From: Candidatus Doudnabacteria bacterium RIFCSPHIGHO2_01_FULL_46_14
GTDB taxonomy: Bacteria; Patescibacteriota; Doudnabacteria; UBA920; 2-01-FULL-46-14
Length of the DNA stretch: 64,000 nucleotides
NCBI GenBank assembly: GCA_001779925.1
Contig: MFEK01000010.1
Location: forward strand, 19,377-83,376
Direction of reading: 5' to 3'
The notes under the pieces were generated by a model. It did not search any database. It was not told the origin of the DNA and worked only from the letters and a program-made list of their open reading frames with translations. Shown in pieces: positions 1,021 to 46,369 of this stretch (positions are counted from its first letter, which is position 1; each line of letters starts with the position of its first letter). Position numbers and translations under genes: made by a program.

Positions 1021-2535
1021 ATGCCACAGTTTAAGCAAGTCATCCTTATTATTCTCGACGGCTGGGGGTATAGAGAAGATACAAAGCACAATCCTATTGC
1101 CGCGGCAAAAAAACCGTTTTTTGATTATCTCTGGAAAACCTATCCGCATGCTCTTCTGGAAGCGTCCGGCGAAGCAGTGGGATTGCCGCCGGGAACTCTC
1201 GGCGGCAGTGAGGTCGGGCATACCACCATCGGTGCTGGGCGGGCCATGGATACGGATCTGGCGCGAATCAACAAATCGTTTGCGGCAGGCGAGGCTAAAA
1301 CCAACCCGGCTTTTGCCGGTTTGTTTGAGCATGTCAAAAAACATAACTCGATCCTGCACATCCTCGGCATGGTCAGTGACAAAGGCGTTCATGCGCACCA
1401 GGAGCATTTGTTTGAATTTCTAAAAGCCGCACATGACGCCGGAATAAAAAAAATCGCGATTCATGCTTTTACGGACGGACGGGATACGCCGCCCCAGAGT
1501 TCGGATAATTATATCCGAGAGCTCGAGGATATTCTGGAAAAAATCGGTGTGGGCCGCATTGCCACAGTCTCGGGAAGATATTATGCCATGGACCGCGACA
1601 AAAATTGGGACCGTATCGAAAAGGTGGAGCACGTCATGTTTCACGGCAAAGGGCAAGCACATACCGGCCGTCCGTCCAAGGTCATCAAGATGCTTTATGA
1701 GCAGGGTCTGACTGACGAACATTTTGAGCCAATGGTGTTCGTGGATGACTCTGGTAAAAGTCTGACTGTTCAGGCAAACGACGGCTTGTTCTTTTTTAAC
1801 TATCGCCCTGACCGCGCGCGGCAAATCAGCCAAAAAATTCTCGAACGCGCTCACGCTCAGAACCTTTGCTTTGTAACCATGACTGAATACGACGAGAGTT
1901 TTCAGTGCCTGGTGGCTTTTGAAAGCAAACCTGTAGAAACCACTCTGGCTTCGGAAATTTCCAAAGCAGGGTTCACTCAGGCCCACATCGCGGAAACCGA
2001 CAAATACGCCCACCTTACATATTTTCTCAATGGCGGCCGCGAGGAACCACACGATAAAGAAGAGTTTGTGCTCGTCGATACCAGAAAAGACGTGAAAACC
2101 CATGACCTGGCTCCGGAAATGCGAGCAAGCGTTATCGCTGACGAGGCGATCGCGAGAATTAAAAATCAGGTCAATTTTATTGCCATCAATTTTGCCAATC
2201 CTGACATTGTCGGGCACAGCGGCAATTTTAAGGCCATGGTAAAAGCGATTGAAACGGTTGATGCCGAGGTTAAGAGAGTTGTGGAAGCCGCCCTCGCAAA
2301 CCACGCGGTCGTCCTAATCACCGCAGATCATGGCAACGCAGAGATTAGTCATGATGAGGAGGTTGGCCAAAATCACACCGCGCATACCTTGAGTCCAGTG
2401 CCCGTGATTTTGACAATAAAAAATCTCAAACTAAAAAACGGCACTCTGGCCGATATTGCCCCAATGATTTTGAAATTATTTAATCTACCAATCCCCTCCT
2501 CCATGACCGGATCCCCTCTTTTTCCCTCCCCTTGA
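1021..2535 (+). CDS. gpmI: 2,3-bisphosphoglycerate-independent phosphoglycerate mutase
   Basis: MPQFKQVILIILDGWGY... and ...NFANPDIVGHSGNF... iPGM motifs; start set to ATG 1021 inside track ORF 982..2535; the last codons (PSP-stop) are encoded by repeat R1. Confidence 0.9.
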   Translation: MPQFKQVILIILDGWGYREDTKHNPIAAAKKPFFDYLWKTYPHALLEASGEAVGLPPGTLGGSEVGHTTIGAGRAMDTDLARINKSFAAGEAKTNPAFAGLFEHVKKHNSILHILGMVSDKGVHAHQEHLFEFLKAAHDAGIKKIAIHAFTDGRDTPPQSSDNYIRELEDILEKIGVGRIATVSGRYYAMDRDKNWDRIEKVEHVMFHGKGQAHTGRPSKVIKMLYEQGLTDEHFEPMVFVDDSGKSLTVQANDGLFFFNYRPDRARQISQKILERAHAQNLCFVTMTEYDESFQCLVAFESKPVETTLASEISKAGFTQAHIAETDKYAHLTYFLNGGREEPHDKEEFVLVDTRKDVKTHDLAPEMRASVIADEAIARIKNQVNFIAINFANPDIVGHSGNFKAMVKAIETVDAEVKRVVEAALANHAVVLITADHGNAEISHDEEVGQNHTAHTLSPVPVILTIKNLKLKNGTLADIAPMILKLFNLPIPSSMTGSPLFPSP

Positions 2536-2563
2536 TGGGGAGGGACTGAGGAAGGGGTGAAAA
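2524..2563. repeat. GC-rich palindromic repeat family A, locus R1 (single unit: palindrome CCCTCCCC-TTGAT-GGGGAGGG plus GGGTGAAAA tail)
   Basis: Direct reading; the same unit recurs about 26 times in the window; the TGA in the core is the gpmI stop. Confidence 0.85.
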
Positions 2564-2567
2564 TACC

Positions 2568-2596
2568 CTATATTAGCATGTTAACACGCTAATATA
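2568..2596. promoter_or_regulatory. 28-bp near-perfect palindrome CTATATTAGCATGTTAACACGCTAATATA (copy A), centred on GTTAAC
   Basis: Nearly identical copy at 30528-30556 immediately upstream of the YerC/TrpR-like gene; here it lies between convergent gpmI and asnS. Confidence 0.45.
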
Positions 2597-2826
2597 TCTT
2601 CTTTCTGAATTTGCGAAGATTAATTTCACAAACTCGGAAAGAGGGGCTACAACAAGAAATTGTTGAAGTAGCCCACCATAACACGATAAACCGTCGTGTC
2701 GGCGGATAGAACGTTAACGTTGACGCCAGCAGAAAAGCTCTGCACTCCTCCTGGCGCAAAAATCACCGATTCCCTACAAGCCGGACAACTCGCCAGCTCC
2801 GGAAATCTGTAAATGATTGACAGGCT

Positions 2827-4134
2827 CTACGGCGTGAGCCGGTAGAGCATCCGCGGAAACGCAATAGTCTCGCGGACGTGCTCGAGTCCGCAGATCCAAG
2901 TAACCAGCCGCTCAATTCCGGCGCCGAAACCAGAATGTGGCACTGACCCGAATTTCCGCAGATCAAGATACCACTGGAACAAAGGCTGTGGCAAAACGTG
3001 CTCTTTGAAACGTTCGACCAGCAGATCATAGCTCGAAATGCGCTGACCGCCCCCGACAATCTCTCCGTATCCTTCCGGAGCGAGTACGTCAACCGAAAGC
3101 GAAACCTCGAATCGTGTCGGATCCGGATCCATATAGAAAGCTTTGATCCCGACTGGGTGACGATGAACCATGACTGGCCGGTCGAATTCCATCGAGATGA
3201 TGGTTTCGTCGGCGCCGCCAAAGTCCCCTCCCCACTGAATTTCCGAACCATGCTTTTTCAGGATATCGATCGCCTCGTCGTATGAAATGCGAGGAAATGG
3301 TGTGGCGATTTTCTCCAGCCTGGATAGATCGCGCTCGAGCGCTTTCAGTTCTGTCGACCGGCGTTCAATTACCCGCCAGACAACAAACGTGATCATGCGC
3401 TCCGCGAGATCCATGGTATCTTCGACCGTTGCGTAGGCGACCTCCGGTTCGACCATCCAGAACTCGGTCAGGTGACGGCGTGTTTTGGATTTTTCAGCCC
3501 GGAACGTGGGTCCGAAACAATAAACTTTGCCCAGTGCCGCCGCAGTTGCTTCATTGTAAAGCTGGCCGGACTGCGTGAGAAAGGCCCTCTCGTTAAAATA
3601 ATTGACCTTAAACGGGGTCGTTGTCCCTTCGCACGTATTTGCTGAGAGAATCGGCGCATCGCAGAGCGTGAATCCATCCTCATCCAGGAAATCGCGGACC
3701 GCCTTGATGATTTCGTGCCGGATTTTCAGAATTGCTCGCTGACGGGTAGACCGGATCCAAAGATGTCGCTGATCCATCAGGAACTCGATACCGTGTTCCT
3801 TAGGCGTAATCGGGAACGGCTCTTCTGTCACCACAACCTGGTGGATCTTCAGGTCTGTGAGATCAAGCTCGTATCCGCTAGGTGCGCGCTCATCCGCGCG
3901 CACTCTACCAGTGACCTCAATAGACGACTCATGCGTCAAACTGTCAGCCGCCTCAAGAATCTCGGCCGAAACACAACGTTTAACGACAACGGCTTGGATA
4001 TAGCCGGTCCCGTCTCGAACGATTATGAACTGGATCTTACCGCCGGTTCGCTTGTTGTGCACCCAGCCGCGAATCGTGACTAGCTCGCCGTTGTGAGCAG
4101 CGATGTCTTGAATGTAAACAACGTTATCGTTCAT
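2827..4134 (-). CDS. asnS: asparagine--tRNA ligase (class IIb aaRS; AspRS not fully excluded)
   Basis: 435 aa; N-terminal OB fold ([26 protein letters not shown]), [41 protein letters not shown] motifs. Confidence 0.7.
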
Positions 4135-4280
4135 GTCTAAAACTCCTCCTGCTTTCTTGGAATTCTCTTCAGGTTGTATTTGCCAAAAAACGGCACCTTA
4201 AGAGACTTTAAACTATAGCACAAATACCGCAAAAAAACAAGAGCCGACGGCCGGCACAAGCGATAAATACCAAAATTATT

Positions 4281-4372
4281 CCTCCCCCTTGAGGGGGGAG
4301 GTTAGGTGGGGGTGAAAAACAACTCTTTATTACCACCCCTCCCTCAATCCCTCCCCCTCAAGGGGAGGGAAA
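4281..4372. repeat. repeat family A, locus R2 (inverted pair, tails inward)
   Basis: cctcccccttgaggggggagg-ttaggtgggggtgaaaaa ... ccacccctccctcaat-ccctccccctcaaggggaggg. Confidence 0.85.
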
Positions 4373-4411
4373 ATACGTAGGAAAGTTTAAATTTCCCTGT
4401 TCAAAGCTAAA

Positions 4412-7074: not shown

Positions 7075-7320
7075 CTACCGGGCCAGCTTGTTGTACAGCA
7101 ATGCCCAGATGTAGCCCACAACCCAACCAGTAACTACCAGCGTGAACAGCACGCCGAAATTGAACTGCACATTGATAGGCGCGAGATCGGCCCCCATAAA
7201 CTGAGCGTTAAACAGATACCGAAACATTTCCGGAGAGACCACAGCGATCACGTAAAACACTATGTAAAATATGGCCATGAGTCCGGCAAGCGACGCGGCA
7301 AAAGCGTTTGGTTTTAGCAT
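7075..7320 (-). CDS. small membrane protein (81 aa), unknown function
   Basis: Two hydrophobic helices; adjacent to DUF1761 gene. Confidence 0.4.
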   Translation of the reverse strand: MLKPNAFAASLAGLMAIFYIVFYVIAVVSPEMFRYLFNAQFMGADLAPINVQFNFGVLFTLVVTGWVVGYIWALLYNKLAR

Positions 7321-14811: not shown

Positions 14812-14840
14812 GTATTTGTTAATAAACTAATAGCTTGTTT

Positions 14841-16992: not shown

Positions 16993-17943
16993 TTATTGTT
17001 TGGTCAAAGCCTCCCTGTATGCAACTAGAACTTTCTGTCCGTGGGAGCCCGGATGGAATGACAGCTCATTGTCAGAAACAAGAATGTTCTCCTGCCTGCG
17101 GATGCGGTGCTTTTGATAGATTCCGAGCAGGTAATTCAAAACCGGAGCGATCGTATAGTCCAGGATCAACTCTAAAATCTTACCCGCGACGCTGAATCGA
17201 AAATCGAAAAATGGCACTGCCCTCTCGTACCGAACATTCGGCAGATAGCCTTTTATCCATTGGTTTTTTTGCCAAAATCTCTTGAGTGTATCGCCGCCGA
17301 TCACCGGCAGGAGACTGGCGTATTCGACCGCGGTATAAAGATTGCGATCATCGGTAATCTCGGTATCGTCCGCCAAATAATGGTTGAGGCAAAATCGGCC
17401 AGCAATTCTTTCCGCATACCTCCGCTGTCCCACCAGCTGAAAATATGCCGAAACCAGCGCGCGGGTCAGCCAAATGCGATTTTTTTTTGTGATGATAAAA
17501 AGATCAATGTCTGATCCGGACTCAGAGTTGAGTAGCGCCTGGGAGCCGGACAGGGCCACGGCCCGCACATATGGCAGGTGCCGCAAAAAACGCAAATATT
17601 TTTTGGTTTTGGCAAATCGCAGCAGCGAGATCTGGTAGCGGTGCTTTCTCTCGGCGATCAATTCTGCGCGACCGCGCAAAAAATACAGGCCTTCGCGATG
17701 CTCGACTTTGCCGGATAATTCTACGGTAATCGTGCTTTCGATTTCAGACAGGATTTCACCCCCACCTTTATCCTCCCCCCTCAAGGGGGAGGAATGGGAA
17801 CCGGTCCCCGCTTTTCCCTCCCCTTGAGGGGGAGGGACCGAGGGAGGGGTGTGAATTAGATAATTTTTCAGTTCCAGGCCCGTCAGCGCCATATCCTGCG
17901 TGTCAAAAAAAACCAGAGTGCTATAGGCTGAATTTTTCTGCAT
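16993..17943 (-). CDS. nucleotidyltransferase (Pol-beta superfamily, MNT-type GS...SDIDL) domain protein
   Basis: LSGSQALLNSESGSDIDLFIIT motif; start chosen at MQKNSAY (17943); repeat locus R3 translated in-frame near the N-terminus. Confidence 0.5.
   Translation of the reverse strand: MQKNSAYSTLVFFDTQDMALTGLELKNYLIHTPPSVPPPQGEGKAGTGSHSSPLRGEDKGGGEILSEIESTITVELSGKVEHREGLYFLRGRAELIAERKHRYQISLLRFAKTKKYLRFLRHLPYVRAVALSGSQALLNSESGSDIDLFIITKKNRIWLTRALVSAYFQLVGQRRYAERIAGRFCLNHYLADDTEITDDRNLYTAVEYASLLPVIGGDTLKRFWQKNQWIKGYLPNVRYERAVPFFDFRFSVAGKILELILDYTIAPVLNYLLGIYQKHRIRRQENILVSDNELSFHPGSHGQKVLVAYREALTKQ
17754..17855. repeat. repeat family A, locus R3 (inverted pair, tails outward) inside NTase CDS
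   Basis: tttcacccccacctttatcctcccccctcaagggggagg ... ttttccctccccttgagggggagggaccgagggaggggtgtgaa; encodes ...PPSVPPPQGEGKAGTGSHSSPLRGEDKGGGE... Confidence 0.85.
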
Positions 17944-26069: not shown

Positions 26070-26491
26070 AAACGACTCCCGGTTTTACTCGCCTCCCCTT
26101 GCGAAAGGACATCTCCTCTTACTCCCCTCCCTTGACGGGAGGGGCTGGGGAAGGGTGGTGCGCAAAGTTTTCCAATTCTATCAAAGACACCTTCCCGGTT
26201 TTGCAAAACTTCGTTATTCCAGAATCGTAAAATTGCAAACCCCTGTGAGCTTAACCATTCGTCGCGAATCTTATCCTGTTCTAAAGTTTCATCTGCATGC
26301 TGGCCGCCGTCTATCTCGATGATCAATTTAACCGAAAAGCAAACAAAATCAACAATATAATTTCCGATTGGCTCCTGACGGCGGAATTTCGATCCAGAAA
26401 GTTGCTTTGAGCGAAGAAAATACCAGACGGCTTTTTCCGCTTCGGTCATCTGGTTTCTCAACTTTCTGACTACATTTGTTGTTTGTCTCAA
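26066..26491 (-). CDS. DUF559 (Vsr-like endonuclease fold) protein
   Basis: ...EPIGNYIVDFVCFSVKLIIEIDGGQH...WLSSQGFAILRFWNNEVLQN...; C-terminal 30 aa encoded by repeat R5; start codon abuts R6. Confidence 0.7.
   Translation of the reverse strand: MRQTTNVVRKLRNQMTEAEKAVWYFLRSKQLSGSKFRRQEPIGNYIVDFVCFSVKLIIEIDGGQHADETLEQDKIRDEWLSSQGFAILRFWNNEVLQNREGVFDRIGKLCAPPFPSPSRQGRGVRGDVLSQGEASKTGSRL
26092..26160. repeat. repeat family A, locus R5 (within 3-prime end of DUF559 gene)
   Basis: cctccccttgcgaaaggacatctcctcttactcccctcccttgacgggaggggctggggaagggtggtg. Confidence 0.75.
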
Positions 26492-26525
26492 TCACCCTCT
26501 CCTACCTCTCCCATCAAGGGAGAGG
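26492..26525. repeat. repeat family A, locus R6 (variant; immediately upstream of DUF559 start)
   Basis: tcaccctctcctac-ctctccc-atcaa-gggagagg; inverted relative to R5. Confidence 0.7.
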
Positions 26526-26568
26526 AATAAATCACTTCCTGTTTGCCAGTTGCACAAATTCTAAAACG

Positions 26569-30061: not shown

Positions 30062-30190
30062 TTCCCTCCCCTTACCGGCGGTCCCCCGAAAGCGTAATCG
30101 CTTTCGGGGTAGACTTGAGGGGGAGGGACTGAGGGAGGGGTGTGGTATTGAAGTTTCACCCCCACCTTGCCTCCCCCATCAAGGGGGAGG
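30062..30190. repeat. repeat family A, locus R8 (inverted pair; first unit carries a nested 40-nt hairpin insertion)
   Basis: ttccctcccctt[accggcggtcccccgaaagcgtaatcgctttcggggtagac]ttgagggggagggactgagggaggggtgtgg ... tttcacccccaccttgcctcccccatcaagggggagg. Confidence 0.85.
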
Positions 30191-30201
30191 AATAAAATCA
30201 G

Positions 30202-30576: not shown

Positions 30577-30622
30577 TTTTCCCTCCCCTCAATGGGAAGG
30601 GATTGAGGGGAGGGGTGTATAA
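30577..30622. repeat. repeat family A, locus R9 (variant)
   Basis: ttttccctcccctcaatgggaagggattgaggggaggggtgtataat; its 3-prime end creates a TATAAT box 10 bp before the next gene. Confidence 0.75.
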
Positions 30623-30632
30623 TATAAATAGC

Positions 30633-31262
30633 ATGAATATTTTCAGCAATTTAAATACTTCCGAATTGAGAGTCTTTCAAAGGCTCAACTCCCCTGCCAA
30701 GATTCAGGACTATCTGGAAACGATCCCGATCAATTTTGAACGAAACGGACAGACATGCTATTCACCGAGGCAGGTTTTGAAGTTTAATCGCGCGCACTGC
30801 ATGGAGGGGGCGATGCTGGCCGCCACTATCCTCTATTTCCACGGTCATAAGCCGCTCATTGTAGACCTACGCGCTCACAAGCGCGACCGAGATCATGCTA
30901 TTGCGGTTTTTAAAGTCGGCGGCAAATGGGGCGCCATCTCCAAAACCAACCACGCAGTGCTGAGATATCGCGAACCGATCTATAACTCCATCCGCGAACT
31001 CGTTATGTCGTATTTCCACGAATATTTCCTGGACAACGGAAAAAAAACTTTGCGCAGTTACAGCCTGCCAGTGGACTTATCAAAATTTGATTCCAAAAAT
31101 TGGATCACTTCCCCGCAAGACCTCTGGTATATTGATAAGTATTTAAACCAAGTCCACCACATCCCTATTCTAAATAAAAAGCAGATCGCATCTCTGCGAT
31201 CTGCTGACAGAATTGAAATCCAGGCAGGCAAACTCACCGCTCAGAAGAAAAATCAGAACTAG
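30633..31262 (+). CDS. hypothetical protein (209 aa) with conserved Cys/His (..NRAHCMEGAMLAATILYFHG..)
   Basis: Start at ATG 30633 (MNIFSNL); no family assigned. Confidence 0.4.
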   Translation: MNIFSNLNTSELRVFQRLNSPAKIQDYLETIPINFERNGQTCYSPRQVLKFNRAHCMEGAMLAATILYFHGHKPLIVDLRAHKRDRDHAIAVFKVGGKWGAISKTNHAVLRYREPIYNSIRELVMSYFHEYFLDNGKKTLRSYSLPVDLSKFDSKNWITSPQDLWYIDKYLNQVHHIPILNKKQIASLRSADRIEIQAGKLTAQKKNQN

Positions 31263-34329: not shown

Positions 34330-35238
34330 TTAACTTAAAATTTCCTGTAAAAGCGCCATCCGCAGATACAGACCGTTTTTAACCTGGGCAAAATATTTAG
34401 CATTGGGGAGGCTGTCTACCTCCATGGCGATTTCATCAATGCGCGGCAAGGGATCGAGCACCACCACGTCTTTATCCTTGAGCATGTCTGCAGTAAGAAT
34501 CAATGCGCGGCGATACTTTTCAAATTCATTCTTCTCCGCAAAACGTTCCTCTTGCAGACGGTTCATGTATAACACATCTGCGTCCAAACCGGATTTGAGA
34601 TCCGCTGTTTCGGTAAGCTGAATGCCTCGCTGCTTTAACTTTTCCAAAAAATCCGGAGCGGCGCGCAAGCTCTCAGGAGAAATGAAAGTCAGCTTATTCC
34701 CACGATACAAACTGAGCAGCAACGCCAGCGAACGAATTGTTCGCGAGTGTTTCGGGTCGCAAGCCAATGCGACGTGCAAATTATCAAGTCGGCCTGTTTC
34801 CCTTTTAATCGTATAAAGGTCATTTAGAGCCTGGGTCGGATGTTCATTTGCACCGTCTCCGGCATTGATCAAAGGTATGTCAGAAACTTTTGCGGCCGCT
34901 TCCGCACTCCCCTCTTTGGAATGTCTGAATACTACGGCATCGGCATATTGATTAACTACACGAATGATGTCCTCAAGCGGCTCACCCCGCGCCGCTTTCG
35001 TGGATTCCATGGCATTTTCCGCGCTGATCACGCCTGCCCCGAGTTTCAAAGCAGCGGCCTCGAACGACAGACGGGTGCGAGTGCTCGGCTCAAAAAATAA
35101 AGTAGCGACAATTTTCCCAGCCAGCGTTTGAGGAATTTTGCCTTTGTCATCCGCCGCCTGCATCCTGTCAGCCAATTTGAAAAGTTTTTCTAGTTCTTTC
35201 GTGTCTGTGAATTGCTCAGCTTTCAAAATATGTTTCAT
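34330..35238 (-). CDS. pyrB: aspartate carbamoyltransferase catalytic subunit
   Basis: FFEPSTRTRLSFE, HPTQAL, ...LHVALAC... motifs. Confidence 0.9.
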   Translation of the reverse strand: MKHILKAEQFTDTKELEKLFKLADRMQAADDKGKIPQTLAGKIVATLFFEPSTRTRLSFEAAALKLGAGVISAENAMESTKAARGEPLEDIIRVVNQYADAVVFRHSKEGSAEAAAKVSDIPLINAGDGANEHPTQALNDLYTIKRETGRLDNLHVALACDPKHSRTIRSLALLLSLYRGNKLTFISPESLRAAPDFLEKLKQRGIQLTETADLKSGLDADVLYMNRLQEERFAEKNEFEKYRRALILTADMLKDKDVVVLDPLPRIDEIAMEVDSLPNAKYFAQVKNGLYLRMALLQEILS

Positions 35239-38200
35239 GATTTATTATATTCCTGCCACGATTTAATTTTCAAGTCTTCCAATTTATAGGTCGTCAGAGC
35301 GCGGACAAAGGCGCGCGCGAGAAACAGATCCGTAAACAGTGGGGTGTTATTGTCCACGGTTGCCCGGCGAATGAGATGCCCGTCGGTAATGGTTGAGGCG
35401 ACATTACGCTGTTCATCAGGACTGCGCTCCGTCAGGTTAATCACAAACGCGACCTTTTTTTGGTTGATAAATTCCAGGACATTCAGCTTTCGCGATTCGT
35501 GGACTTTGTAGACTTTGGAGCATTTTACCCCGGATTTATTGAAAAAGTCGCACGTAGTATCAGTCGCGTAAATTTTAAATCCAGCTCTGAGAAGCGCTTT
35601 CGCGCTTTCCAAAAACCGTTTTTTGTTCATGATGCCGCCGAGGGACAAGAGCACGGCTTTTTTGTTGATAAACGGCACGGTAGCATAAACAGATTTGAGA
35701 AGGGCTTCGTCCGCATCATCACCAAAACACGCGACCTCGCCGGTGGAAGCCATTTCCACATGCAGGAGCGGATCCGCGCCTGCAAGCCTGGCAAAAGAAA
35801 ACTGCGGCGATTTTACTACAACGCTACTAGGATAAGGGATTTCAATCCTACGACTTTTACCATAGAACGAGGCCACGATCATTTCCGCAAAATTAACACC
35901 GGTGGCCTTGGAAAGAAGCGGAAAGGTTCGGGACGCGCGGAGGTTTGCTTCAATCACGTAAACCCGGTTGTCTTTGACCAAAAACTGCACGTTTAATGGC
36001 CCGGTGATGGTGAGGGCGCGAGCCAGGGCGGCCCCGACCTTCATGATCTTCTGTTCCGTGGAAGCAAAAACCCGCTGGGTCGGATAAACAATCGTCGCAT
36101 CTCCGGAATGCACGCCCGCATTTTCAATGTGTTCGGAGATAGCTTGCACCTGAATGCGGCCATTTTGCGCGACCGCGTCAAGCTCGATCTCCCGCGCGCT
36201 CGTGAAAAATTTGGAAATAGTCACAGGATGGGTCTTGTTAAGAGTCGTTGCTTTATTTACAAACCATTCCAGCTCGTGCTCATTGTAACAAACTGACATT
36301 GCCGACCCGGAGAGCACGTATGAGGGACGCACCAAAACCGGATAGCCCACCTCGCTTGCAAACTTTTGCGCCTCGGCCATATCCGTAAAACTGTTCCAGC
36401 GCGGCTGGGGGATGGCAAGCCTGTCTAGCAGCGCGGAAAATTTATTACGGTCTTCCGCCCGATCAATATTTTCGGCCGCGGTGCCGAGAAGTTTCGCCCC
36501 ATATTCAGAAAGAGCGTTGGCCAGGTTGTTCGGCGCCTGGCCGCCGACCGACACAACCACGCCTTCGGGTTTTTCAAAATCGAGAATCTCGGTCACTGTT
36601 TCAAATGACAGCTCCTCGAAATAGAGCCTTGCCGACATGTCGTAGTCCGTAGAAACTGTTTCCGGATTGCAATTAATAATGATCGACTGCCTGCCGTATT
36701 TCGGAAGCGCAAGCGCGGTATGGACGCACGACCAGTCAAACTCTACGGACGAACCAATATGATATGGGCCGGAACCCAAAACCACCACGCTTTTTTTACC
36801 AAGGGCCCTCACATCATGGTGCGAACCATTATAGGTCAAGTAAAGATAATTGGTTTTCGCCGGTACCTCGCCTGCCAGCGTGTCGATCTGAAATACCGAG
36901 GGCGTAACACGCAGTTTTTTGCGAAGCTTGCGGATCTCTGTTTCCGGCACATTCCTGATATGCGCTATGCGACGATCAGAAAACCCGAGTTGTTTGAGGT
37001 GCCAAAGCTCGTCTGTTTCCAGTTTCTTATTTCTGGCAAGTCCGAGCTCGGCCTCGACAATATTTTTAACGCGATAAAGAAACCATGGATCAATCCCAGT
37101 CAGAGCTTTGATTTTCCTGATCGGCACATTGCGTTTTATGGCTGAAGCCAGGGCAAATAGACGCTTTGGCGTGGGCACGCGCAAATAGCGCTCAAGCTCT
37201 TCCGGAGAAAAATTATTATCCGTTACGCCTTCCACACGGCCATGGAGCATGCGCACGGCTTTCTGCAGAGCCTCCTCAAACGTGCGGCCAACGGCCATAA
37301 CCTCGCCCACGCTCTTCATGGCACTGCCGATTTTTTCCTCGGCCCCGCGGAATTTTTCCAAATCCCAGCGCGGGATTTTCACTACTACGTAATCAAGCGC
37401 TGGTTCAAAAAAAGACTGGGTAACCTTTGTAACTTGATTCTGTACATCAAGAAGAGATTTTCCAAGGGCAAGTTTCGCGGCTACGTATGCGAGCGGATAA
37501 CCCGTGGCTTTCGAAGCCAAAGCCGAAGATCGGGAGAGGCGGGCGTTGACCTCTATAACTTCAAAATCAAATCCACCCCCACCCCGCCTCCCCCCTCGAG
37601 GGGGAGGAATCCTTCTGTACTTCCCTCCCCTTGAGGGGGAGGGACTAAGGGAGGGGTGAGGGTTTACCGCATATTGAACGTTGCACTCGCCGACTATTCC
37701 CAAAGAACGCACGATTTTTATGGAAGCCTCGCGCAACAAATGATATTCGTCATTGGTCAGGGTCTGGCTCGGCGCCACCACAATCGAATCACCGGTATGG
37801 ATGCCGAGGGGATCGAGGTTTTCCATGTTGCAGACAGTAACGCAATTGTCATAGGCATCCCGAACCACTTCGTATTCAAGCTCTTTGTAGTGATGTAGAT
37901 ATTTTTCTACGAGAATTTGCGAGGAGATAGCGAGCGCGTCTCTTGCAATCTTTTCTAATTCCTCCCTACTCCGCGCCATCCCAGATTTTTGTCCACCGAG
38001 CGCATAAGCCGCTCTGACCATGACCGGGTAGCCAATATTTTTGGCAATCTTTAACGCCTGCGGTAAATTTGTAGCCGCCTTGCTTTTCGGCACGGAAATA
38101 TTTATTTTTTTCAAATGATCAGCAAATTTCTGACGATCTTCAGTAAGAACAATGGCCTCAATAGGGGTTCCGAGCACTGCTACGCCATATTTTTTCAGAA

Positions 38201-38546
38201 CGCCTTTTTTGTGCAAAGCCAGGCCGCAGTTGAGCGCAGTCTGTCCGCCAAATGACAGAAAAATTCCATCAGGCCGCTCTTTTTCTATCACCCGTTCCAC
38301 AAAATAGGGCGTAACCGGCAGGAAATAAATTTCGTCCGCAAGAAGCGGCGAGGTCTGAATGGTCGCAATATTGGGATTTACGAGAATGATTTTGATTCCT
38401 TCCTCCCGCAGAGCTTTCATTGCCTGGCTGCCAGAGTAATCAAACTCGCCTGCTTCGCCGATTTTCAGCGCGCCTGATCCCAGAACTAAAACTTTTTTTA
38501 TACCCCCTCTCCTTTCTAAGGAGAGGGTTGGGGTGAGGTCTCTCAT
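35235..38546 (-). CDS. carB: carbamoyl-phosphate synthase large subunit
   Basis: 1103 aa, two ATP-grasp halves + MGS-like domain; N-terminal 14 aa (MRDLTPTLSLERRGG) encoded by repeat R11; R10 in-frame after first ATP-grasp. Confidence 0.95.
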   Translation of the reverse strand: MRDLTPTLSLERRGGIKKVLVLGSGALKIGEAGEFDYSGSQAMKALREEGIKIILVNPNIATIQTSPLLADEIYFLPVTPYFVERVIEKERPDGIFLSFGGQTALNCGLALHKKGVLKKYGVAVLGTPIEAIVLTEDRQKFADHLKKINISVPKSKAATNLPQALKIAKNIGYPVMVRAAYALGGQKSGMARSREELEKIARDALAISSQILVEKYLHHYKELEYEVVRDAYDNCVTVCNMENLDPLGIHTGDSIVVAPSQTLTNDEYHLLREASIKIVRSLGIVGECNVQYAVNPHPSLSPSPSRGGKYRRIPPPRGGRRGGGGFDFEVIEVNARLSRSSALASKATGYPLAYVAAKLALGKSLLDVQNQVTKVTQSFFEPALDYVVVKIPRWDLEKFRGAEEKIGSAMKSVGEVMAVGRTFEEALQKAVRMLHGRVEGVTDNNFSPEELERYLRVPTPKRLFALASAIKRNVPIRKIKALTGIDPWFLYRVKNIVEAELGLARNKKLETDELWHLKQLGFSDRRIAHIRNVPETEIRKLRKKLRVTPSVFQIDTLAGEVPAKTNYLYLTYNGSHHDVRALGKKSVVVLGSGPYHIGSSVEFDWSCVHTALALPKYGRQSIIINCNPETVSTDYDMSARLYFEELSFETVTEILDFEKPEGVVVSVGGQAPNNLANALSEYGAKLLGTAAENIDRAEDRNKFSALLDRLAIPQPRWNSFTDMAEAQKFASEVGYPVLVRPSYVLSGSAMSVCYNEHELEWFVNKATTLNKTHPVTISKFFTSAREIELDAVAQNGRIQVQAISEHIENAGVHSGDATIVYPTQRVFASTEQKIMKVGAALARALTITGPLNVQFLVKDNRVYVIEANLRASRTFPLLSKATGVNFAEMIVASFYGKSRRIEIPYPSSVVVKSPQFSFARLAGADPLLHVEMASTGEVACFGDDADEALLKSVYATVPFINKKAVLLSLGGIMNKKRFLESAKALLRAGFKIYATDTTCDFFNKSGVKCSKVYKVHESRKLNVLEFINQKKVAFVINLTERSPDEQRNVASTITDGHLIRRATVDNNTPLFTDLFLARAFVRALTTYKLEDLKIKSWQEYNKS
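37573..37661. repeat. repeat family A, locus R10 (inverted pair) in-frame within carB
   Basis: ccacccccaccccgcctcccccctcgagggggagg...ttccctccccttgagggggagggactaagggaggggtgagg; encodes ...PSLSPSPSRGGKYRRIPPPRGGRRGGGGF... Confidence 0.85.
38500..38540. repeat. repeat family A, locus R11 (variant) at the carA/carB junction
   Basis: ataccccctctcctttctaaggagagggttggggtgaggtc; carA stop and carB start overlap (ATGA) at 38543-38546. Confidence 0.7.
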
Positions 38547-39646
38547 TCCAATTTCTTTATAAATTCATCGAAAATCCAGCCAGTGTCGAGCGGGCCGGGG
38601 TGAGACTCGGGATGAAACTGCACAGACATGAACGGCAAATGCTCGTGGATAATCCCTTCGTTGGTTTTGTCATTGACATTCACAAACCAAGCCCGAAAAC
38701 CTTTAGGGATTTTTTTGACCGCAAAACCGTGATTTTGCGTGGTGAGATAAGCGCGCTTAGTACCGACCAGAATGGCCCCGTGGTTTTGCCCGCGGTGGCC
38801 GAATTTTAGCTTATAAGTATCTCCGCCAGCGGCCAGAGTGAGAATCTGGTTACCAAGACAAATACCGAGAATGGGAATTTTTTTTTCTAAAGCAATTTTG
38901 GTAATCGCAATCGTTCTCGTGGCCATCTTCGGATCGCCCGGGCCATTGGAAATAACTATACCGTCAAACTTTAACCGCTTGGCAAAAATATCATAGTCCC
39001 AAGGCACAACTGTCACGCGGATTTTTCTTTTGACCAGTTCGCGGATAATATTCTGTTTTACGCCGCAATCGAAAACCACAACTGTCTTTCGTCCGGAACC
39101 GGATTTTACTATTCGTTTTGTGGAGACCTCTGCAACCAAGTTACGCAAATTAGGATCTGCAAAATCACCCCCACCTAACCTCCTCCCTCGAGGGGGAGGA
39201 ATCCGCGATTTTCCCCTCCCTGGAGGGGAGGGGTTGGGGGAGGGTGAAAATGAGATTTTGCCTAGCATTACACCCTTTTCCCGCAATTTTTTCGTAAGCG
39301 CTCTGGAGTCTTTGATTTCCAGGGCTGGGATATTTTCCGCAGCTAGCCACTGCGCTAACGTCCGCCGCGAAGAATAATGCGACGGCGTATCTATATAATT
39401 AGATACTATCAATCCCGAAACTTTGATGCTGGCTGATTCCCAAACTTTTTTGTCTGGCACGCCATAGTTCCCGACCAGCGGATAAGTGAGTACCAAAATC
39501 TGCCCTTGATACGACGGATCAGTGAGGCTTTCCGGATATCCAACCATTCCCGTGGCAAAAACCACCTCACCAGAAACACTCCTCCGCGCACCGAAGCTGG
39601 TCCCGATTAATTCGGTATTATCTTCTAAAATTAGGCGTCCTAGCAT
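38543..39646 (-). CDS. carA: carbamoyl-phosphate synthase small (glutamine amidotransferase) subunit
   Basis: GATase triad region ...GICLGNQ...; R12 in-frame (..SPSPNPSPPGRGKSRIPPPRGRRLGGGDF..). Confidence 0.9.
   Translation of the reverse strand: MLGRLILEDNTELIGTSFGARRSVSGEVVFATGMVGYPESLTDPSYQGQILVLTYPLVGNYGVPDKKVWESASIKVSGLIVSNYIDTPSHYSSRRTLAQWLAAENIPALEIKDSRALTKKLREKGVMLGKISFSPSPNPSPPGRGKSRIPPPRGRRLGGGDFADPNLRNLVAEVSTKRIVKSGSGRKTVVVFDCGVKQNIIRELVKRKIRVTVVPWDYDIFAKRLKFDGIVISNGPGDPKMATRTIAITKIALEKKIPILGICLGNQILTLAAGGDTYKLKFGHRGQNHGAILVGTKRAYLTTQNHGFAVKKIPKGFRAWFVNVNDKTNEGIIHEHLPFMSVQFHPESHPGPLDTGWIFDEFIKKLE
39165..39250. repeat. repeat family A, locus R12 (inverted pair) in-frame within carA
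   Basis: tcacccccacctaacctcctccctcgagggggagg...ttcccctccctggaggggaggggttgggggagggtgaaaa. Confidence 0.85.
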
Positions 39647-41016: not shown

Positions 41017-42186
41017 CTATTGATTATCATGTATTTCTAACGGGGCGAGTCTATGATTTGCTCCAACAACTTCTTTAACTGACCGAAATCCATCAGCTTC
41101 CAATAATTTTACCAAACCCCGTTTAATTTTTTTCGGCAACGAAGGACCTTCATAAATCATACCCGTATAAATTTCCACGAGGCTTGCGCCAGCGCGGATC
41201 TTTTCGTACGCATCCTCAGCGGAAAAAATCCCCCCTGCTCCGATTATCGGTACTCGGCCTTCAAGCTTTTTGTAAAGATAACCGATCACTTCAGTAACTC
41301 TCTTGGCAATCGGGCGGCCAGACAAACCGCCCCCGCCCATGCCCTCAGTGGCAGCGGTATTAGTCGCAATAACCCCGTCAATCTTTGTTTCCAAAACAAT
41401 CTCTGCAATATCATCAAGCTCACCGTCAGTCAGATCAGGTGAGATTTTGAGAAGCAAAGGCCGCCACCCCCACCTAACCTCCTCGCCTCGCCTTCGCTCG
41501 GACGAAGCGGGCCCCCTCAAAGGGGAGGAATTCGTTTGTATTTCCCTCCCCTCGAGGGGGAGGGCTGGGGAGGGGTGATTCAATTTCTGTAATTCCATAA
41601 GCAAATTCCTCAGCTCCTCTTTCCCCTGTAATTCCCGCAGTCCCGGTGTATTTGGAGAACTAACATTGACCACCACATAGTCGGCCAAGGGCGCTAATTC
41701 TGTAAATCCCGTGGCATAATCGCGCAGAGCCTCCTCGTTCGGCGTAATTTTATTTTTTCCTAGATTGACCCCGATCACAAAATCGCGCTTCTCAAGTCTT
41801 TTCAAATTTTTCGCCACTGCCATTGCGCCCATGCTGTTAAATCCCATCCGGTTGATGATCGCCTTATCCGCATCCAGACGAAATAGTCGTGGTTTGGGAT
41901 TGCCCGGCTGCGGCTCAGGGGTCACAGTCCCCACTTCAATAAACCCAAACCCGAGCGCGGCCATGAACCGCGCAAAGCCGCCGGATTTATCATAGCCAGG
42001 TGCAAGGCCGATCGGATTTTTGAATCTGACTCCAAAGACTTCAGTCTCAAGCGATGGATGTTCGTACCGAAACAACGGCGAAAACACTTCGGAAAGTCCC
42101 GAAAAATTCCTGCCCAAAGCCGCCACAGCATTGTGCATGGTTTCTGGCTGGATAGTAAATAAAATCGGCCGCAAAAGTTTATACAT
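41017..42186 (-). CDS. pyrD: dihydroorotate dehydrogenase (class 2-like, with N-terminal extension)
   Basis: FKNPIGLAPGYDKSG..., FIEVGTVTPEPQPGNPKPRLFRL; R13 in-frame. Confidence 0.85.
   Translation of the reverse strand: MYKLLRPILFTIQPETMHNAVAALGRNFSGLSEVFSPLFRYEHPSLETEVFGVRFKNPIGLAPGYDKSGGFARFMAALGFGFIEVGTVTPEPQPGNPKPRLFRLDADKAIINRMGFNSMGAMAVAKNLKRLEKRDFVIGVNLGKNKITPNEEALRDYATGFTELAPLADYVVVNVSSPNTPGLRELQGKEELRNLLMELQKLNHPSPALPLEGREIQTNSSPLRGPASSERRRGEEVRWGWRPLLLKISPDLTDGELDDIAEIVLETKIDGVIATNTAATEGMGGGGLSGRPIAKRVTEVIGYLYKKLEGRVPIIGAGGIFSAEDAYEKIRAGASLVEIYTGMIYEGPSLPKKIKRGLVKLLEADGFRSVKEVVGANHRLAPLEIHDNQ
41464..41578. repeat. repeat family A, locus R13 (inverted pair; first unit with nested hairpin insertion) in-frame within pyrD
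   Basis: cacccccacctaacctcctcgcc[tcgccttcgctcggacgaagcgg]gccccctcaaaggggagg...tttccctcccctcgagggggagggctggggaggggtga. Confidence 0.85.
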
Positions 42187-45439: not shown

Positions 45440-45442
45440 GGC

Positions 45443-45544
45443 CTACCTCCTTATTCGAAAGAAAAATCCAGAAAGGCTAACTGCTGCGAGCAACTGACGC
45501 CTTTGGTACCATCTGCGGCGAGAGCCGAAATGGCTATTTCCCAT
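45443..45544 (-). CDS. candidate micro-ORF A (MGNSHFGSRRRWYQRRQLLAAVSLSGFFFRIRR; track ORF 45443..45634 extends it upstream) with perfect SD AAGGAGG
   Basis: AAGGAGG 6 nt upstream of internal ATG; its stop overlaps ORF B SD. Confidence 0.2.
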   Translation of the reverse strand: MGNSHFGSRRRWYQRRQLLAAVSLSGFFFRIRR

Positions 45545-45665
45545 CAAGTGCCTCCTTGGAGCTTGGATGATTTTATAATACCGAACTAACCCATAGGAGC
45601 AAAACAAGATACCCACATAAAACAGGTGGCTCATCTAATTTTCAATCAGATGGTAGCAAAACAAT

Positions 45666-45705
45666 GAAAAAGACGGCGACTGCCAGGCAGTGCACCGTCT
45701 TTTTG
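45666..45705. terminator. bidirectional intrinsic terminator (A5-hairpin-T5) after gene 45722..46150
   Basis: aaaaagacggcgactgccaggcagtgcaccgtcttttt. Confidence 0.55.
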
Positions 45706-45721
45706 GATTGGGTTTTAGAGC

Positions 45722-46150
45722 TTAACTAGCTTGTGGCTGATTGCATATCCACGACCTGATAGTCGCTTTCCCAAATATGGGAATTGCCAGCAGGTTGACA
45801 CCGCAGTTTTCCAATCGTATCAACCCGTCGTTATCAATTCTTCCTGCAGTACAAAATCCCGTAAGCACCTTTGATATCTCATTGAGATTCTCAGCCGTGA
45901 TGAATATGCAGTCGGGAATTGTGACAATCGACGTCTCCGGCTGATAAACCGCCACGTACATGAAATCATTGACATCATTGCCCAACCGCGTGTATATCTC
46001 AAACAATGTCACCAAACCCGGACCGTCAGCGAGCACAGTGCCAGAAGGCGGCGGGAACACCTTGGCCTTTGACAGATCAATACCCAGCCAGCGCTTGATA
46101 AAACTTCTAAGCTCAGCCATGTTCATTTCTCCTCTTTGAAATTTGTTCAA
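45722..46150 (-). CDS. hypothetical protein (142 aa; TTG start in track)
   Basis: No family recognised. Confidence 0.4.
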   Translation of the reverse strand: MNKFQRGEMNMAELRSFIKRWLGIDLSKAKVFPPPSGTVLADGPGLVTLFEIYTRLGNDVNDFMYVAVYQPETSIVTIPDCIFITAENLNEISKVLTGFCTAGRIDNDGLIRLENCGVNLLAIPIFGKATIRSWICNQPQAS

Positions 46151-46328
46151 ACGAAAAACGGCCTCTGTTTGAGGCCGCCTGACAAAGTTCGTAAAAACTT
46201 TTACAATTTACAAGCGCTAGCAAATAACCTCAAACAGGGAACCGTTTGAGTGACGCAACATTTGATGCTGTGGAATATTTGCTTCATATTTTGATTATAT
46301 TCCTCTATTATAGACCCGTCAAAGTTAA

Positions 46329-46369
46329 TTCACCCCTCCCTCAATCCCTCCCCCTCAAGGGGAGGGAAG
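46329..46369. repeat. repeat family A, locus R14; supplies the last codons and stop of gene 46355..46852
   Basis: ttcacccctccctcaatccctccccctcaaggggaggg; minus-strand reading gives ...RFLPSP-stop. Confidence 0.85.

What the first reader, a model, noticed from the sequence alone, without database searches (positions are those of the whole stretch)
2515..46369. Repeat units provide translation termini: PSP-stop tails of gpmI and of gene 46355..46852, and the start/N-terminus of carB
In one orientation and frame the palindrome core CCTTGA(G/T)GGG reads Pro-Ser-Pro-stop. Both gpmI (ending 2535) and the membrane protein gene ending at 46355 terminate exactly on this TGA inside a repeat unit. At the carA/carB junction, repeat R11 encodes the first 14 codons of carB (MRDLTPTLSLERRGG) while preserving the ATGA stop/start overlap. 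The first DUF559 gene also ends inside R5. So the elements have been domesticated as gene ends.
Basis: seen in the sequence. Interest (0 to 1): 0.6.

Follow-up and report, generated by a model that had tools for sequence, protein, structure and literature searches.

The report
Triplex-type palindromic repeats inside genes
A known kind of short G/C-rich palindromic repeat (BoxC/"triplex motif") has spread through this Candidatus Doudnabacteria genome, landing inside essential genes and on gene ends; the repeat-encoded gene ends look like passive by-products rather than adaptations, and the repeats turn out to bracket small DUF559 nuclease genes.

Summary
gpmI (982..2535) and the DUF6580 gene (46355..46852) both stop on the TGA in the loop of a repeat unit, and carB codons 3-14 are encoded by a unit. 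Two details are wrong. The carB ATG and its ATGA overlap lie outside the unit. The first DUF559 ORF reads through its unit and stops 55 nt further on.

Close relatives with empty sites show that native termini were displaced. "Domestication" is not supported. An orthologous filled site reads the same unit in another frame, giving a different tail. Both terminal units carry a stop in all three forward frames, so ending inside them is automatic.

All 22 units analysed fit the three-block architecture of BoxC/PIT/"TM" intrastrand-triplex repeats, which are reported as always intergenic in E. coli. Here about 26 copies lie in 64 kb, and 17 of the 28 I catalogued touch an ORF. They sit in frame in carA, carB, pyrD, hisS, a ribonucleotide reductase gene and a nucleotidyltransferase-like ORF, much like Rickettsia palindromic elements.

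Unexpectedly, both DUF559 (Vsr-like nuclease) genes are bracketed by inverted units. The same holds across 79 metagenomic DUF559 loci (95/154 gene ends against 6/136 for other ORFs) and downstream of E. coli ycjD. I found no report of this link.

The parts
982..2535 (+). gpmI (2,3-bisphosphoglycerate-independent phosphoglycerate mutase); roughly its last 4-8 codons and its stop come from a unit
   Evidence: Pfam iPGM_N and Metalloenzyme. Tail MTGSPLFPSP*. Orthologs end MTG plus 5-9 variable residues, apart from one 21-residue read-through tail (P0003).
2510..2563 (+). Triplex-type unit (A type), forward relative to gpmI; loop TGA 2533-2535 is the gpmI stop
   Evidence: All three forward frames contain a stop.
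46355..46852 (-). DUF6580 membrane protein gene; tail DPRFLPSP* is unit-derived
   Evidence: Pfam DUF6580. Empty site in L164 and a filled site read in another frame in L166.
46328..46377 (-). A-type unit, forward relative to the DUF6580 gene; 38/38 identical to the intergenic unit at 4334-4371
   Evidence: (family D1).
38505..38540 (+). Degenerate unit (CCCTCTCC arms, GACCTCACCC tail), reverse relative to carB; encodes carB codons 3-14
   Evidence: (10-bp hairpin, z -3.6). The same subtype flanks DUF559 genes in L088, L095 and L135.
35235..38546 (-). carB, carrying the N-terminal unit and an internal doublet
37569..37659 (.). Tails-out inverted doublet in frame in carB (HPSLSPSPSRGGK-YRR-IPPPRGGRRGGGGF) in a variable loop after QYAVNP
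   Evidence: z -3.8. The forward unit has a TCGA loop, so CGA (Arg) stands where TGA would be.
38543..39646 (-). carA
39162..39251 (.). Tails-out doublet in frame in carA between the two domains; absent from 11 orthologs, shared with L001
41465..41583 (.). Tails-out doublet (with a nested GC hairpin) in frame in pyrD 41017..42186
   Evidence: Query residues 199-241 have no counterpart in solved DHODH 8ofw.
27689..27723 (+). Single unit in frame in hisS 27308..28630; 35/35 identical to the unit upstream of DUF559 #2
   Evidence: (I14). It makes a 13-aa insertion relative to 6nhi.
50094..50127 (-). Unit in frame in the ribonucleotide reductase gene 49952..52483 (VSPSFTKEGAGGSS)
17754..17855 (.). 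Tails-out doublet in frame near the N-terminus of a nucleotidyltransferase-like ORF (ATG 17891)
   Evidence: z -3.2.
26066..26491 (-). DUF559 gene #1 (Vsr-like PD-(D/E)xK nuclease); its C-terminal 30 aa read through the downstream unit(s)
   Evidence: Pfam DUF559, E 1.6e-41..
26491..26529 (-). Unit immediately upstream of DUF559 #1; its GGGTGA end abuts the TTG start
26092..26157 (.). Unit 26123-26157 plus a degenerate unit 26092-26110 inside the 3' tail of DUF559 #1
   Evidence: (D5).
49532..49909 (-). DUF559 gene #2
   Evidence: Pfam DUF559, E 1.1e-29. Closest solved structure is 3hrl.
49912..49943 (-). Unit ending GGGGAGGTTA directly before the ATG of DUF559 #2 (Shine-Dalgarno-like)
49499..49531 (+). 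Inverted unit starting directly after the stop of DUF559 #2
4277..4373 (.). Intergenic tails-in doublet (B + A type)
52520..52606 (.). Intergenic tails-in doublet between the reductase gene and nrdR
30114..30194 (.). Intergenic partial unit plus a full unit downstream of the Trp-repressor-like gene
30577..30618 (+). Unit overlapping the nominal TTG start of ORF 30603..31262

Best explanation
The repeats are G/C-rich three-block palindromic units: a pyrimidine arm, a complementary purine arm, and a third purine block that mirrors the second. This is the BoxC / PIT / "triplex motif" kind. They have multiplied in this Candidatus Doudnabacteria genome as single units and as inverted doublets that pair two unit types.

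They land in intergenic DNA and in coding DNA, and selection then filters what survives:
- On the C-rich reading strand most units are open in all three frames, so insertions in permissive loops persist as 12-40-aa in-frame inserts (carA, carB, pyrD, hisS, the reductase gene).
- On the G-rich reading strand, canonical units carry stops: TGA in the TTGA loop, TGA or TAA in the spacer, and TGA at the GGGGTGA end.
- Such copies therefore survive only in the last few codons of a gene, where they replace the native tail and supply the stop (gpmI, DUF6580), or as variants that lack a stop in the frame read (TCGA loop in carA and carB).

The repeat-encoded termini are thus passive, near-neutral consequences of insertion.

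Shown: the architecture, the in-frame positions, the empty and filled orthologous sites, and the frame and stop pattern.

Inferred: how units spread. The most likely agent is the small DUF559 Vsr-like nuclease, whose genes sit exactly between two inverted units. It may cut or nick at units and so provoke copying by recombination or gene conversion.
For: Architecture:
- 22/22 units obey the three-block rule with 8-10-nt blocks and at most one mismatch, against 37/3000 random 45-mers.
- The published E. coli consensus is CCCTCNCCC N3-6 GGGNGAGGG N3 GGGNGAGGG, with inverted doublets that always pair type A with type B (PMC4666352). The window's six full doublets likewise all pair a B-type unit with an A- or C-type unit.

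Insertion:
- Empty sites exist in close relatives for the DUF6580, gpmI and carB N-terminal sites.
- The carA insert is absent from 11 orthologs.
- The pyrD and hisS inserts are absent from solved homologs.

Passive filter:
- Both terminal units have stops in all three forward frames. Most reverse frames are open.
- The four internal A-type units are all in reverse orientation, and the only forward A-type units that overlap confirmed genes are the two terminal ones.
- The forward units in carA and carB are read in the PSP frame but have CGA in place of TGA.
- L166 reads the orthologous unit in another frame.

Ongoing copying:
- Unit pairs at unrelated sites are 35/35 and 38/38 identical.

DUF559 link:
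- Both window genes are bracketed by inverted units.
- L030 has a bracketed DUF559 gene between carA and carB.
- In 79 metagenomic loci, 95/154 DUF559 gene ends have a unit within 60 nt, against 6/136 for other ORF ends (Fisher p = 2e-27).
- Unit density is 5.6 per kb near DUF559 genes and 0.10 per kb far from them.
- E. coli ycjD ends ...SPSP* in a degenerate BoxC hairpin, with published TMECO #9 lying 154 nt downstream.
- No transposase or RAYT matched any of the 69 window ORFs scanned against Pfam; carA and carB were identified by homology instead.
Against: - No de novo insertion or target-site duplication was seen, so mobility is inferred from presence/absence and from identical copies.
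- The two DUF559 genes are only 44% identical, and each was found at a single genomic site, so there is no sign of recent movement of the genes themselves.
- The same carA and carB loops carry unrelated inserts in other lineages (L002, L001, L003). Part of the pattern therefore reflects permissive loops rather than targeting.
- The carA doublet is 95-97% conserved between genomes whose CarA is 82% identical. That could mean constraint rather than neutrality.
- In E. coli these repeats are reported never to be intragenic, and no phenotype was found for them (PMC4666352). Behaviour may differ between lineages.
Confidence: 0.75

Rival explanations
1. Domestication. The units were recruited because a hairpin at the stop codon, or the Pro-Ser-Pro tail, is useful, for example for mRNA 3'-end stability, termination efficiency or protein function. 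For carB, the N-terminal peptide or hairpin would tune translational coupling with carA.
For: - Two unrelated genes end on the same loop TGA in the same frame.
- The ends are stable across independent assemblies.
- A 10-bp hairpin sits 19-42 nt into carB.
- Many DUF559 genes take their stop from the TAA in the spacer of the downstream unit, and E. coli YcjD ends SPSP*. For DUF559 genes, at least, a unit-supplied stop is recurrent.
Against: - The orthologous filled site in L166 uses another frame and gives another peptide.
- Empty sites occur in equally close relatives.
- Native tails are short and unconserved.
- With stops in all three forward frames, termination inside the unit is unavoidable.
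- Earlier work cited in PMC4666352 found that these repeats have no promoter or terminator activity in E. coli.
Confidence: 0.1
2. Not insertions at all. The G/C-rich three-block sequences would arise or be maintained in place, by local selection for a DNA or RNA structure or by slippage or repair bias at C/G runs. Their overlap with gene ends would then be a coincidence of where low-complexity sequence is tolerated.
For: The same loops of CarA and CarB carry various low-complexity inserts in other lineages. No target-site duplication was found.
Against: - Exact 35-38-nt copies lie at unrelated loci.
- Filled and empty boundaries are sharp.
- There are discrete unit types and a fixed doublet architecture.
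- The association with one gene family is tight.
Confidence: 0.07
3. Artefact. Mis-assembly or frameshift errors in repeats, or mis-called starts and stops, would create the apparent repeat-encoded termini.
For: The source is a metagenome-assembled genome. Other assemblies break near DUF559 #2 (L167 and L168).
Against: - Identical gpmI, DUF6580 and DUF559 #1 proteins occur in independent assemblies from different samples.
- The reading frames of carA, carB, pyrD and hisS stay open and homologous on both sides of each insert.
- carB has no alternative canonical start.
Confidence: 0.03

Closest known systems
[quoted passage not shown] 2015, PMC4666352)
   Same: The same three-block architecture: a C-rich arm, a 3-6-nt loop, a complementary G-rich arm, a short spacer (often TTA) and a mirror G-rich block. 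Units are about 35 nt and multi-copy. Inverted doublets pair two unit types. Loci vary between relatives.
   Different: - In E. coli they are reported as always intergenic, at 23 copies in 4.6 Mb, with no mobility function nearby.
- Here there are about 26 copies in 64 kb, and 17 of the 28 catalogued touch ORFs.
- They form in-frame inserts and gene ends.
- They bracket DUF559 genes.
- The arm sequences differ (CCCTCCCC or CCTCCCCC rather than CCCTCNCCC).
Rickettsia palindromic elements (RPEs), as summarised in PMC10969869
   Same: Palindromic repeats inserted in frame into many unrelated housekeeping genes, adding peptides that the protein fold tolerates.
   Different: RPEs are about 100-150 bp, AT-rich and confined to Rickettsia, with no sequence or architectural relation to these units. 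No associated nuclease is known for them, and triplex architecture is not a feature.
REP/REPIN elements with RAYT (Y1) transposases
   Same: Short imperfect palindromes at high copy number. Inverted doublets fold into long hairpins. A single-copy enzyme gene is flanked by inverted repeat units. Copies within a genome are homogeneous.
   Different: There is no GTAG or CGTC head. No Y1 transposase was found in the window. The flanked gene is a Vsr-like PD-(D/E)xK nuclease instead. The units are not restricted to extragenic DNA.
Vsr-fold homing endonucleases (EDxHD family, I-Bth0305I; PMC3239194), placed in one clade with Vsr, DUF559 and DUF2726 in PMC3424549
   Same: A small Vsr-like nuclease domain encoded by a selfish insert. 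I-Bth0305I acts as a homodimer on a pseudopalindromic target, which is the kind of site an inverted unit pair would offer.
   Different: I-Bth0305I lies in a group I intron and has extra DNA-binding domains. DUF559 proteins here are about 110-residue single domains with no intron or intein. No activity has been shown for any DUF559 protein.

Membership tests
BoxC / PIT / G/C-rich class II intrastrand triplex motif | Three consecutive blocks: a pyrimidine block, a complementary purine block, and a third block that mirrors the purine block (G for G, A or T for A). Stems of 6-15 nt with at most one mismatch. | tested here: met
   22/22 units, with blocks of 8-10 nt, against 37/3000 random 45-mers. 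Rule taken from PMC4666352.
BoxC / PIT / G/C-rich class II intrastrand triplex motif | Short loops (1-6 nt), with the second loop often TTA | tested here: met
   First loops are 2-5 nt and second loops 1-5 nt. TTA or TTAGG spacers occur in the B and D types.
BoxC / PIT / G/C-rich class II intrastrand triplex motif | Multi-copy, with inverted doublets that pair two different unit types | tested here: met
   About 26 copies. All six full doublets pair a B-type unit with an A- or C-type unit. E. coli shows A + B pairs.
BoxC / PIT / G/C-rich class II intrastrand triplex motif | Match to the E. coli TMECO consensus CCCTCNCCC...GGGNGAGGG...GGGNGAGGG | tested here: not met
   The window arms are CCCTCCCC, CCTCCCCC or CCCCTCCC. 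They are related in design, not in exact sequence, so this is a different sequence subfamily.
BoxC / PIT / G/C-rich class II intrastrand triplex motif | Actual formation of a triplex by the single strand | not testable with these tools
   Only hairpin folding could be computed. CD and NMR were needed in PMC4666352.
BoxC / PIT / G/C-rich class II intrastrand triplex motif | Intergenic location (as reported for E. coli) | tested here: not met
   17 of the 28 catalogued units or fragments lie in or overlap ORFs (plus the reductase unit). This is a behavioural difference, not an architectural one.
REP/REPIN-RAYT system | Conserved GTAG or CGTC head on the palindrome | tested here: not met
   Units begin TTCC... 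and end ...GGGGTG(A), with no such head. Criterion from PMC3733652.
REP/REPIN-RAYT system | Associated Y1 (IS200/IS605-like) RAYT transposase flanked by REPs | tested here: not met
   None of the 69 window ORFs scanned against Pfam (all but two of those of at least 105 aa, carA and carB, which were identified by homology, plus four shorter ones) matched a transposase. The rest of the genome was not examined.
Rickettsia palindromic elements | In-frame insertion of a palindromic repeat into unrelated protein-coding genes | tested here: met
   carA, carB, pyrD, hisS, the reductase gene and the nucleotidyltransferase-like ORF. This is a behavioural resemblance only.
Rickettsia palindromic elements | Sequence family of about 100-150 bp specific to Rickettsia | tested here: not met
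   Units are about 35-45 nt and G/C-rich, and the host is a CPR bacterium.
MITE | Terminal inverted repeats plus a target-site duplication, derived from an IS with a transposase | tested here: inconclusive
   No clear duplication shows at the one sharp filled/empty junction. No parent IS was found in the window.
DUF559 / Vsr-like PD-(D/E)xK nucleases (the bracketed genes) | Pfam PF04480 above its gathering score, with a conserved D...E-x-D-G-x2-H core | tested here: met
   141 and 102.9 bits against a cut-off of 20.6. Invariant VDF...EIDG..H. 3hrl at E 1.4e-15.
Homing endonuclease gene | The same site is found with and without the gene in relatives, and the enzyme cleaves the empty site | not tested
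   No sufficiently close relatives were available for either DUF559 locus. Biochemistry is required.

The most novel reading that the evidence does not exclude
DUF559 proteins, including E. coli YcjD, are the long-missing partner enzymes of BoxC/PIT/triplex-motif repeats. A DUF559 gene sitting between two inverted units would be the autonomous form of a widespread selfish element. The nuclease would recognise the unit or the doublet (as duplex, cruciform or triplex) and drive its copying. Solo units and doublets would be the non-autonomous derivatives. In CPR bacteria the system would be active enough to colonise essential genes in frame. One metagenomic locus (L086) carries the whole unit-DUF559-unit cassette in frame inside a 2,655-nt ORF (884 codons).
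Probability: 0.35. Interest if true: 0.8.

Novelty: new variant of a known kind. Interest (0 to 1): 0.55.

Why it matters
[quoted passage not shown] The main survey found no mobility gene near them and reported the E. coli copies as always intergenic.

This window shows the same kind of repeat behaving like Rickettsia palindromic elements in a reduced CPR genome. It reshapes loops and termini of carA, carB, pyrD, hisS, a ribonucleotide reductase gene, gpmI and others. That matters for annotating and modelling CPR proteins, because many "CPR-specific inserts" may be repeat-derived.

The tight, cross-phylum bracketing of DUF559 genes by these units gives two orphan problems a shared hypothesis that can be tested in E. 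coli: the function of DUF559/YcjD, and the origin of BoxC repeats.

The specific claim I was given, that the repeats were domesticated as gene ends, is the least remarkable part.

Tried and rejected
- My first regex hairpin scan was badly designed and found nothing useful. I replaced it with an nhmmer profile.
- Searching protein databases for the doublet-encoded peptide failed. The query was too short. The exhaustive HMMER search gave a single repeat-rich protein. How widely such peptides occur in proteins therefore remains unmeasured.
- Rfam found only two tRNAs and no known RNA family at the units.
- An intrinsic-terminator role is unlikely: neither orientation has a hairpin followed by a T run.
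- I considered the RAYT/REP and MITE readings and rejected membership of both (no head motif, no transposase, no clear duplication).
- Looking for other genomic sites of the two DUF559 genes gave only the same locus in other samples.
- No close relative of L030 was available to date its carA-carB cassette.
- E. coli population check at fabI-ycjD: about 38% of genomes diverge right after fabI, and the one genome I inspected has different genes there. This fits the published instability, but I did not pursue it as far as an empty-site test.
- PADLOC gave only weak partial matches to nuclease domains of DpdF and a methyl-directed restriction enzyme, which is not evidence for a defence system.

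Full report
**1. What is in the sequence**

The core CCTTGAKGGG occurs 10 times in the window, against 0.23 expected from shuffles. Repeat finding and an nhmmer profile built from 12 copies give about 25 non-redundant unit sites of 35-45 nt. A strict detector adds one more in the reductase gene.

The canonical unit is TTCCCTCCCC-TTGA-GGGGGAGGG-ACTGA-GGGAGGGGTG(A). It is a hairpin followed by a second G-rich block.

Units fall into types:
- A: CCCTCCCC arm with an ACTGA spacer.
- B: CCTCCCCC arm with a TTAGG spacer.
- C: CCCCTCCC arm.
- D: CCCCTCC arm with a TCGTGA loop.
- A CCCTCTCC type.

Many units form inverted doublets. Tails-out doublets lie at 17754/17812, 37569/37620, 39162/39209 and 41465/41540. 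Tails-in doublets lie at 4277/4331 and 52520/52563. All six pair a B-type unit with an A- or C-type unit.

As single-stranded DNA, the doublets fold better than shuffles (z -3.2 to -3.8), with the two tails pairing with each other. Rfam has nothing at these positions.

**2. Source and gene content**

The window comes from a Candidatus Doudnabacteria bacterium of the Candidate Phyla Radiation. Exact protein matches carry that name and A2751_ locus tags, and the nearest carA locus is another Doudnabacteria MAG. I scanned 69 ORFs against Pfam, which is nearly the whole gene set. They are ordinary housekeeping genes. None matched a transposase, integrase or RAYT.

**3.

*gpmI.* The gene ends ...PSSMTGSPLFPSP*, with its TGA (2533-2535) in the loop of a forward A-type unit. 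Twenty-three homologs from other organisms end MTG plus 5-9 variable residues, except P0003, whose 21-residue tail is read-through. The 80%-identical relative ends MTGTSRIK* with no unit in its last codons or in the 7 nt that remain before the contig ends. The 70% relative reads through into the neighbouring gene, also without a unit.

*DUF6580.* The gene ends ...VKRYDPRFLPSP*, in the same orientation and frame. One 79%-identical ortholog (L164) has an empty site and ends ...VKRYLIRARLA*. Another (L166) has a unit at exactly the same site but reads it in another frame, ending ...VKRFVSLPLRGERSRER*. Two further homologs have tails of that second kind. In my gene set, only these two ORFs end in PSP*.

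*carB.* The ATG at 38546 is the first start codon after the upstream in-frame stop. No ATG, GTG or TTG follows before the conserved KKVLVLGSG strand, so the unit is translated. The unit itself (GACCTCACCCC...GGAGAGGG) covers codons 3-14. In several of the relatives the carB reading frame also begins within a few bases of the carA match end, and their N-termini are M plus 1-4 residues before KK. The start codon and the ATGA overlap therefore look native, and the event is an in-frame insertion behind the start.

*DUF559 #1.* The ORF does not end inside a unit. It runs through one unit and a degenerate second one, then stops 55 nt beyond the full unit and about 25 nt beyond the degenerate one.

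**4. The larger pattern**

The same units lie in frame inside genes:
- A doublet in carA (31 aa). It is absent from 11 orthologs and shared with the closest one.
- A doublet in carB (30 aa), in a loop that varies among relatives.
- A doublet with a nested hairpin in pyrD. About 43 aa have no counterpart in solved DHODH.
- A single unit in hisS, giving a 13-aa insertion relative to 6nhi.
- A unit in the ribonucleotide reductase gene.
- A doublet near the N-terminus of a nucleotidyltransferase-like ORF.

In all, 17 of the 28 units or fragments I catalogued touch an ORF (plus the reductase unit).

**5. Why termini fall inside units**

Translating every unit in six frames shows an asymmetry. Most C-rich-strand frames are open. 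The G-rich strand of canonical A-type units has a stop in each frame: PSP* from the loop TGA..GRD* from the spacer, and ..G* from GGGGTGA. This is true of both terminal units and of the A-type unit in carB.

The distribution fits. The four internal A-type units are all in the open orientation. The only forward A-type units that overlap confirmed genes are the two at 3' ends.

The forward B-type units inside carA and carB are read in the very frame that gives PSP*, but they have a TCGA loop, so CGA (Arg) stands where TGA would be.

An ORF that is hit in its last codons by a forward unit must therefore end within it. This, together with the frame switch in L166 and the unconserved native tails, argues against selected "domestication". 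It favours insertion followed by purifying filtering.

Exact copies at unrelated sites suggest recent or continuing copying. Unit 27689-27723 matches 49909-49943 at 35/35, and 4334-4371 matches 46331-46368 at 38/38.

**6. What the units are**

The hairpin-plus-mirror-block design is that of BoxC / PIT / "triplex motif" repeats. Holder et al. 2015 (PMC4666352) give the following:
- The E. coli consensus is CCCTCNCCC N3-6 GGGNGAGGG N3 GGGNGAGGG.
- E. coli K-12 has 23 copies, which are "always located intergenically".
- There are two types, which pair A with B in inverted doublets.
- The loci show genomic instability.
- No mobility function was found nearby.

All 22 window units that I tested satisfy the three-block rule, with 8-10-nt blocks and at most one mismatch, against 1.2% of random 45-mers. 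The arm sequences differ from the E. coli consensus, so this is a different sequence subfamily of the same kind.

The behaviour of in-frame colonisation of housekeeping genes is best matched by Rickettsia palindromic elements (PMC10969869). They share no sequence relation with these units.

**7. An unexpected association**

Both DUF559 genes in the window are bracketed by inverted units whose tails face the gene.
- For gene #2, the upstream unit ends GGGGAGGTTA directly before the ATG, and the downstream unit starts right after the stop.
- For gene #1, the upstream unit abuts the TTG start, and the downstream unit lies within the C-terminal tail.

In locus L030, from another CPR lineage, a DUF559 gene bracketed by units of a different sequence but the same design sits between carA and carB.

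A metagenome scan with a DUF559 alignment returned 80 loci:
- 32 of 79 have flank-to-flank inverted matches above the 95th percentile of a cross-locus control.
- A strict detector finds 5.6 units per kb within 150 nt of the gene, against 0.10 per kb beyond 300 nt.
- 95 of 154 DUF559 gene ends have a unit within 60 nt, against 6 of 136 ends of other ORFs in the same loci (Fisher p = 2e-27).

The arm sequence differs between loci while the design is kept. In several of the 14 loci inspected, the gene's stop is the TAA in the spacer of the downstream unit. In L086 a unit-DUF559-unit cassette lies in frame inside a 2,655-nt ORF of 884 codons.

E. coli K-12 ycjD is that organism's DUF559 gene. It ends ...NRRSPSP*, with its TGA in a degenerate BoxC hairpin. 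Published TMECO #9 lies 154 nt downstream.

DUF559 belongs to the Vsr clade of PD-(D/E)xK nucleases, together with the homing endonuclease I-Bth0305I (PMC3424549 and PMC3239194). Its closest solved structure, 3hrl, has no known function.

Of the 22 papers listed from the 25 in the library that mention DUF559, none appears to concern repeats. Holder et al. do not mention DUF559, ycjD or any endonuclease.

I therefore propose, as an inference and not a demonstration, that DUF559 nucleases act on these units and drive their copying.

**8. Limits**

- No insertion event, target duplication or enzyme activity was observed.
- The two DUF559 genes are old (44% identical), and each is single-site.
- Part of the intragenic pattern reflects permissive loops that also accept unrelated inserts in other lineages.
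- Peptide-based searches for other proteins carrying unit-derived segments failed for technical reasons.

**9. Verdict**

The native termini were indeed displaced. The repeat-encoded termini are nevertheless best read as passive consequences of a BoxC/triplex-type repeat family that is unusually invasive in this genome. The DUF559 association is the most interesting lead.

Noticed in passing
L175 (E. coli K-12 NC_000913.3 1344000-1356000): 7205-7420: E. coli ycjD (DUF559) ends ...RRSPSP* with its TGA in a degenerate BoxC hairpin. Published TMECO #9 lies 154 nt downstream in inverted orientation. A partial duplicate of the ycjD 3' end (ETVLENIRQGLNR) sits between them. About 38% of 5,426 E. coli genomes diverge immediately after fabI.
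   Followed up: partly
L086:151-2805: A complete unit-DUF559-unit cassette is inserted in frame in an 884-codon ORF. A further solo unit (SLPPLPLGEGRGEGE) lies later in the same ORF. I read the host ORF as resembling a type I restriction-modification methyltransferase, from its sequence only; it was not scanned against Pfam.
   Followed up: no
L030:11049-11540: In another CPR lineage a DUF559 gene bracketed by TTCCCCTC-TTTTAA-GAGGGG...GGGGTG units sits between carA and carB. This is essentially the junction where the window has a lone unit inside carB codons 3-14.
   Followed up: partly
window 27689-27723 and 49909-49943: The unit inside hisS is 35/35 identical to the unit immediately upstream of DUF559 #2. 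This suggests recent copying from a cassette end.
   Followed up: partly
window 41486-41512: The B-type unit in pyrD carries a nested 27-nt GC-rich hairpin (GCTTCGTCCGAGCGAAGC) inside its purine arm, that is, an insertion within an insertion.
   Followed up: no
window 39646-39702 and 46915-46971 (also 39717-39745 / 47377-47405): A 57-nt AT-rich inverted repeat (86%) lies immediately upstream of carA and about 60 nt upstream of the DUF6580 gene start. A second shared 29-mer lies nearby. This may be a common promoter or operator.
   Followed up: no
window 20841-20879 and 21535-21573: An exact 39-nt direct repeat (GGCTGGGGCTTCCTGCCGGAATTTATCCGGAAAAAATAA) occurs at the 3' end of the RelA/SpoT-like gene and again 694 nt downstream.
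   Followed up: no
window 14819-14899 and 15560-15640: Two tandem DUF2975 paralogs each have a conserved 81-nt leader containing the palindrome CCGCCAAAGGCGGATCCGCCTTTGGCGG.
   Followed up: no
L002:10001-11173 and L018 carB: L002 carA has an unrelated insertion of about 50 aa (SLRASASERSNLSQEK...) at exactly the site of the window's carA doublet. L018 carB has a unit-like PPQPSPSQGREKG at the site of the window's carB doublet. The same loops are hit repeatedly.
   Followed up: no
window 22448-23041: The nucleoside diphosphate kinase ORF is 197 aa and its Pfam match is split in two. It carries an insert that is not unit-derived.
   Followed up: no
L167, L168: Other assemblies of the same organism break within about 200 nt of DUF559 #2, as expected if the units confound short-read assembly.
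   Followed up: no
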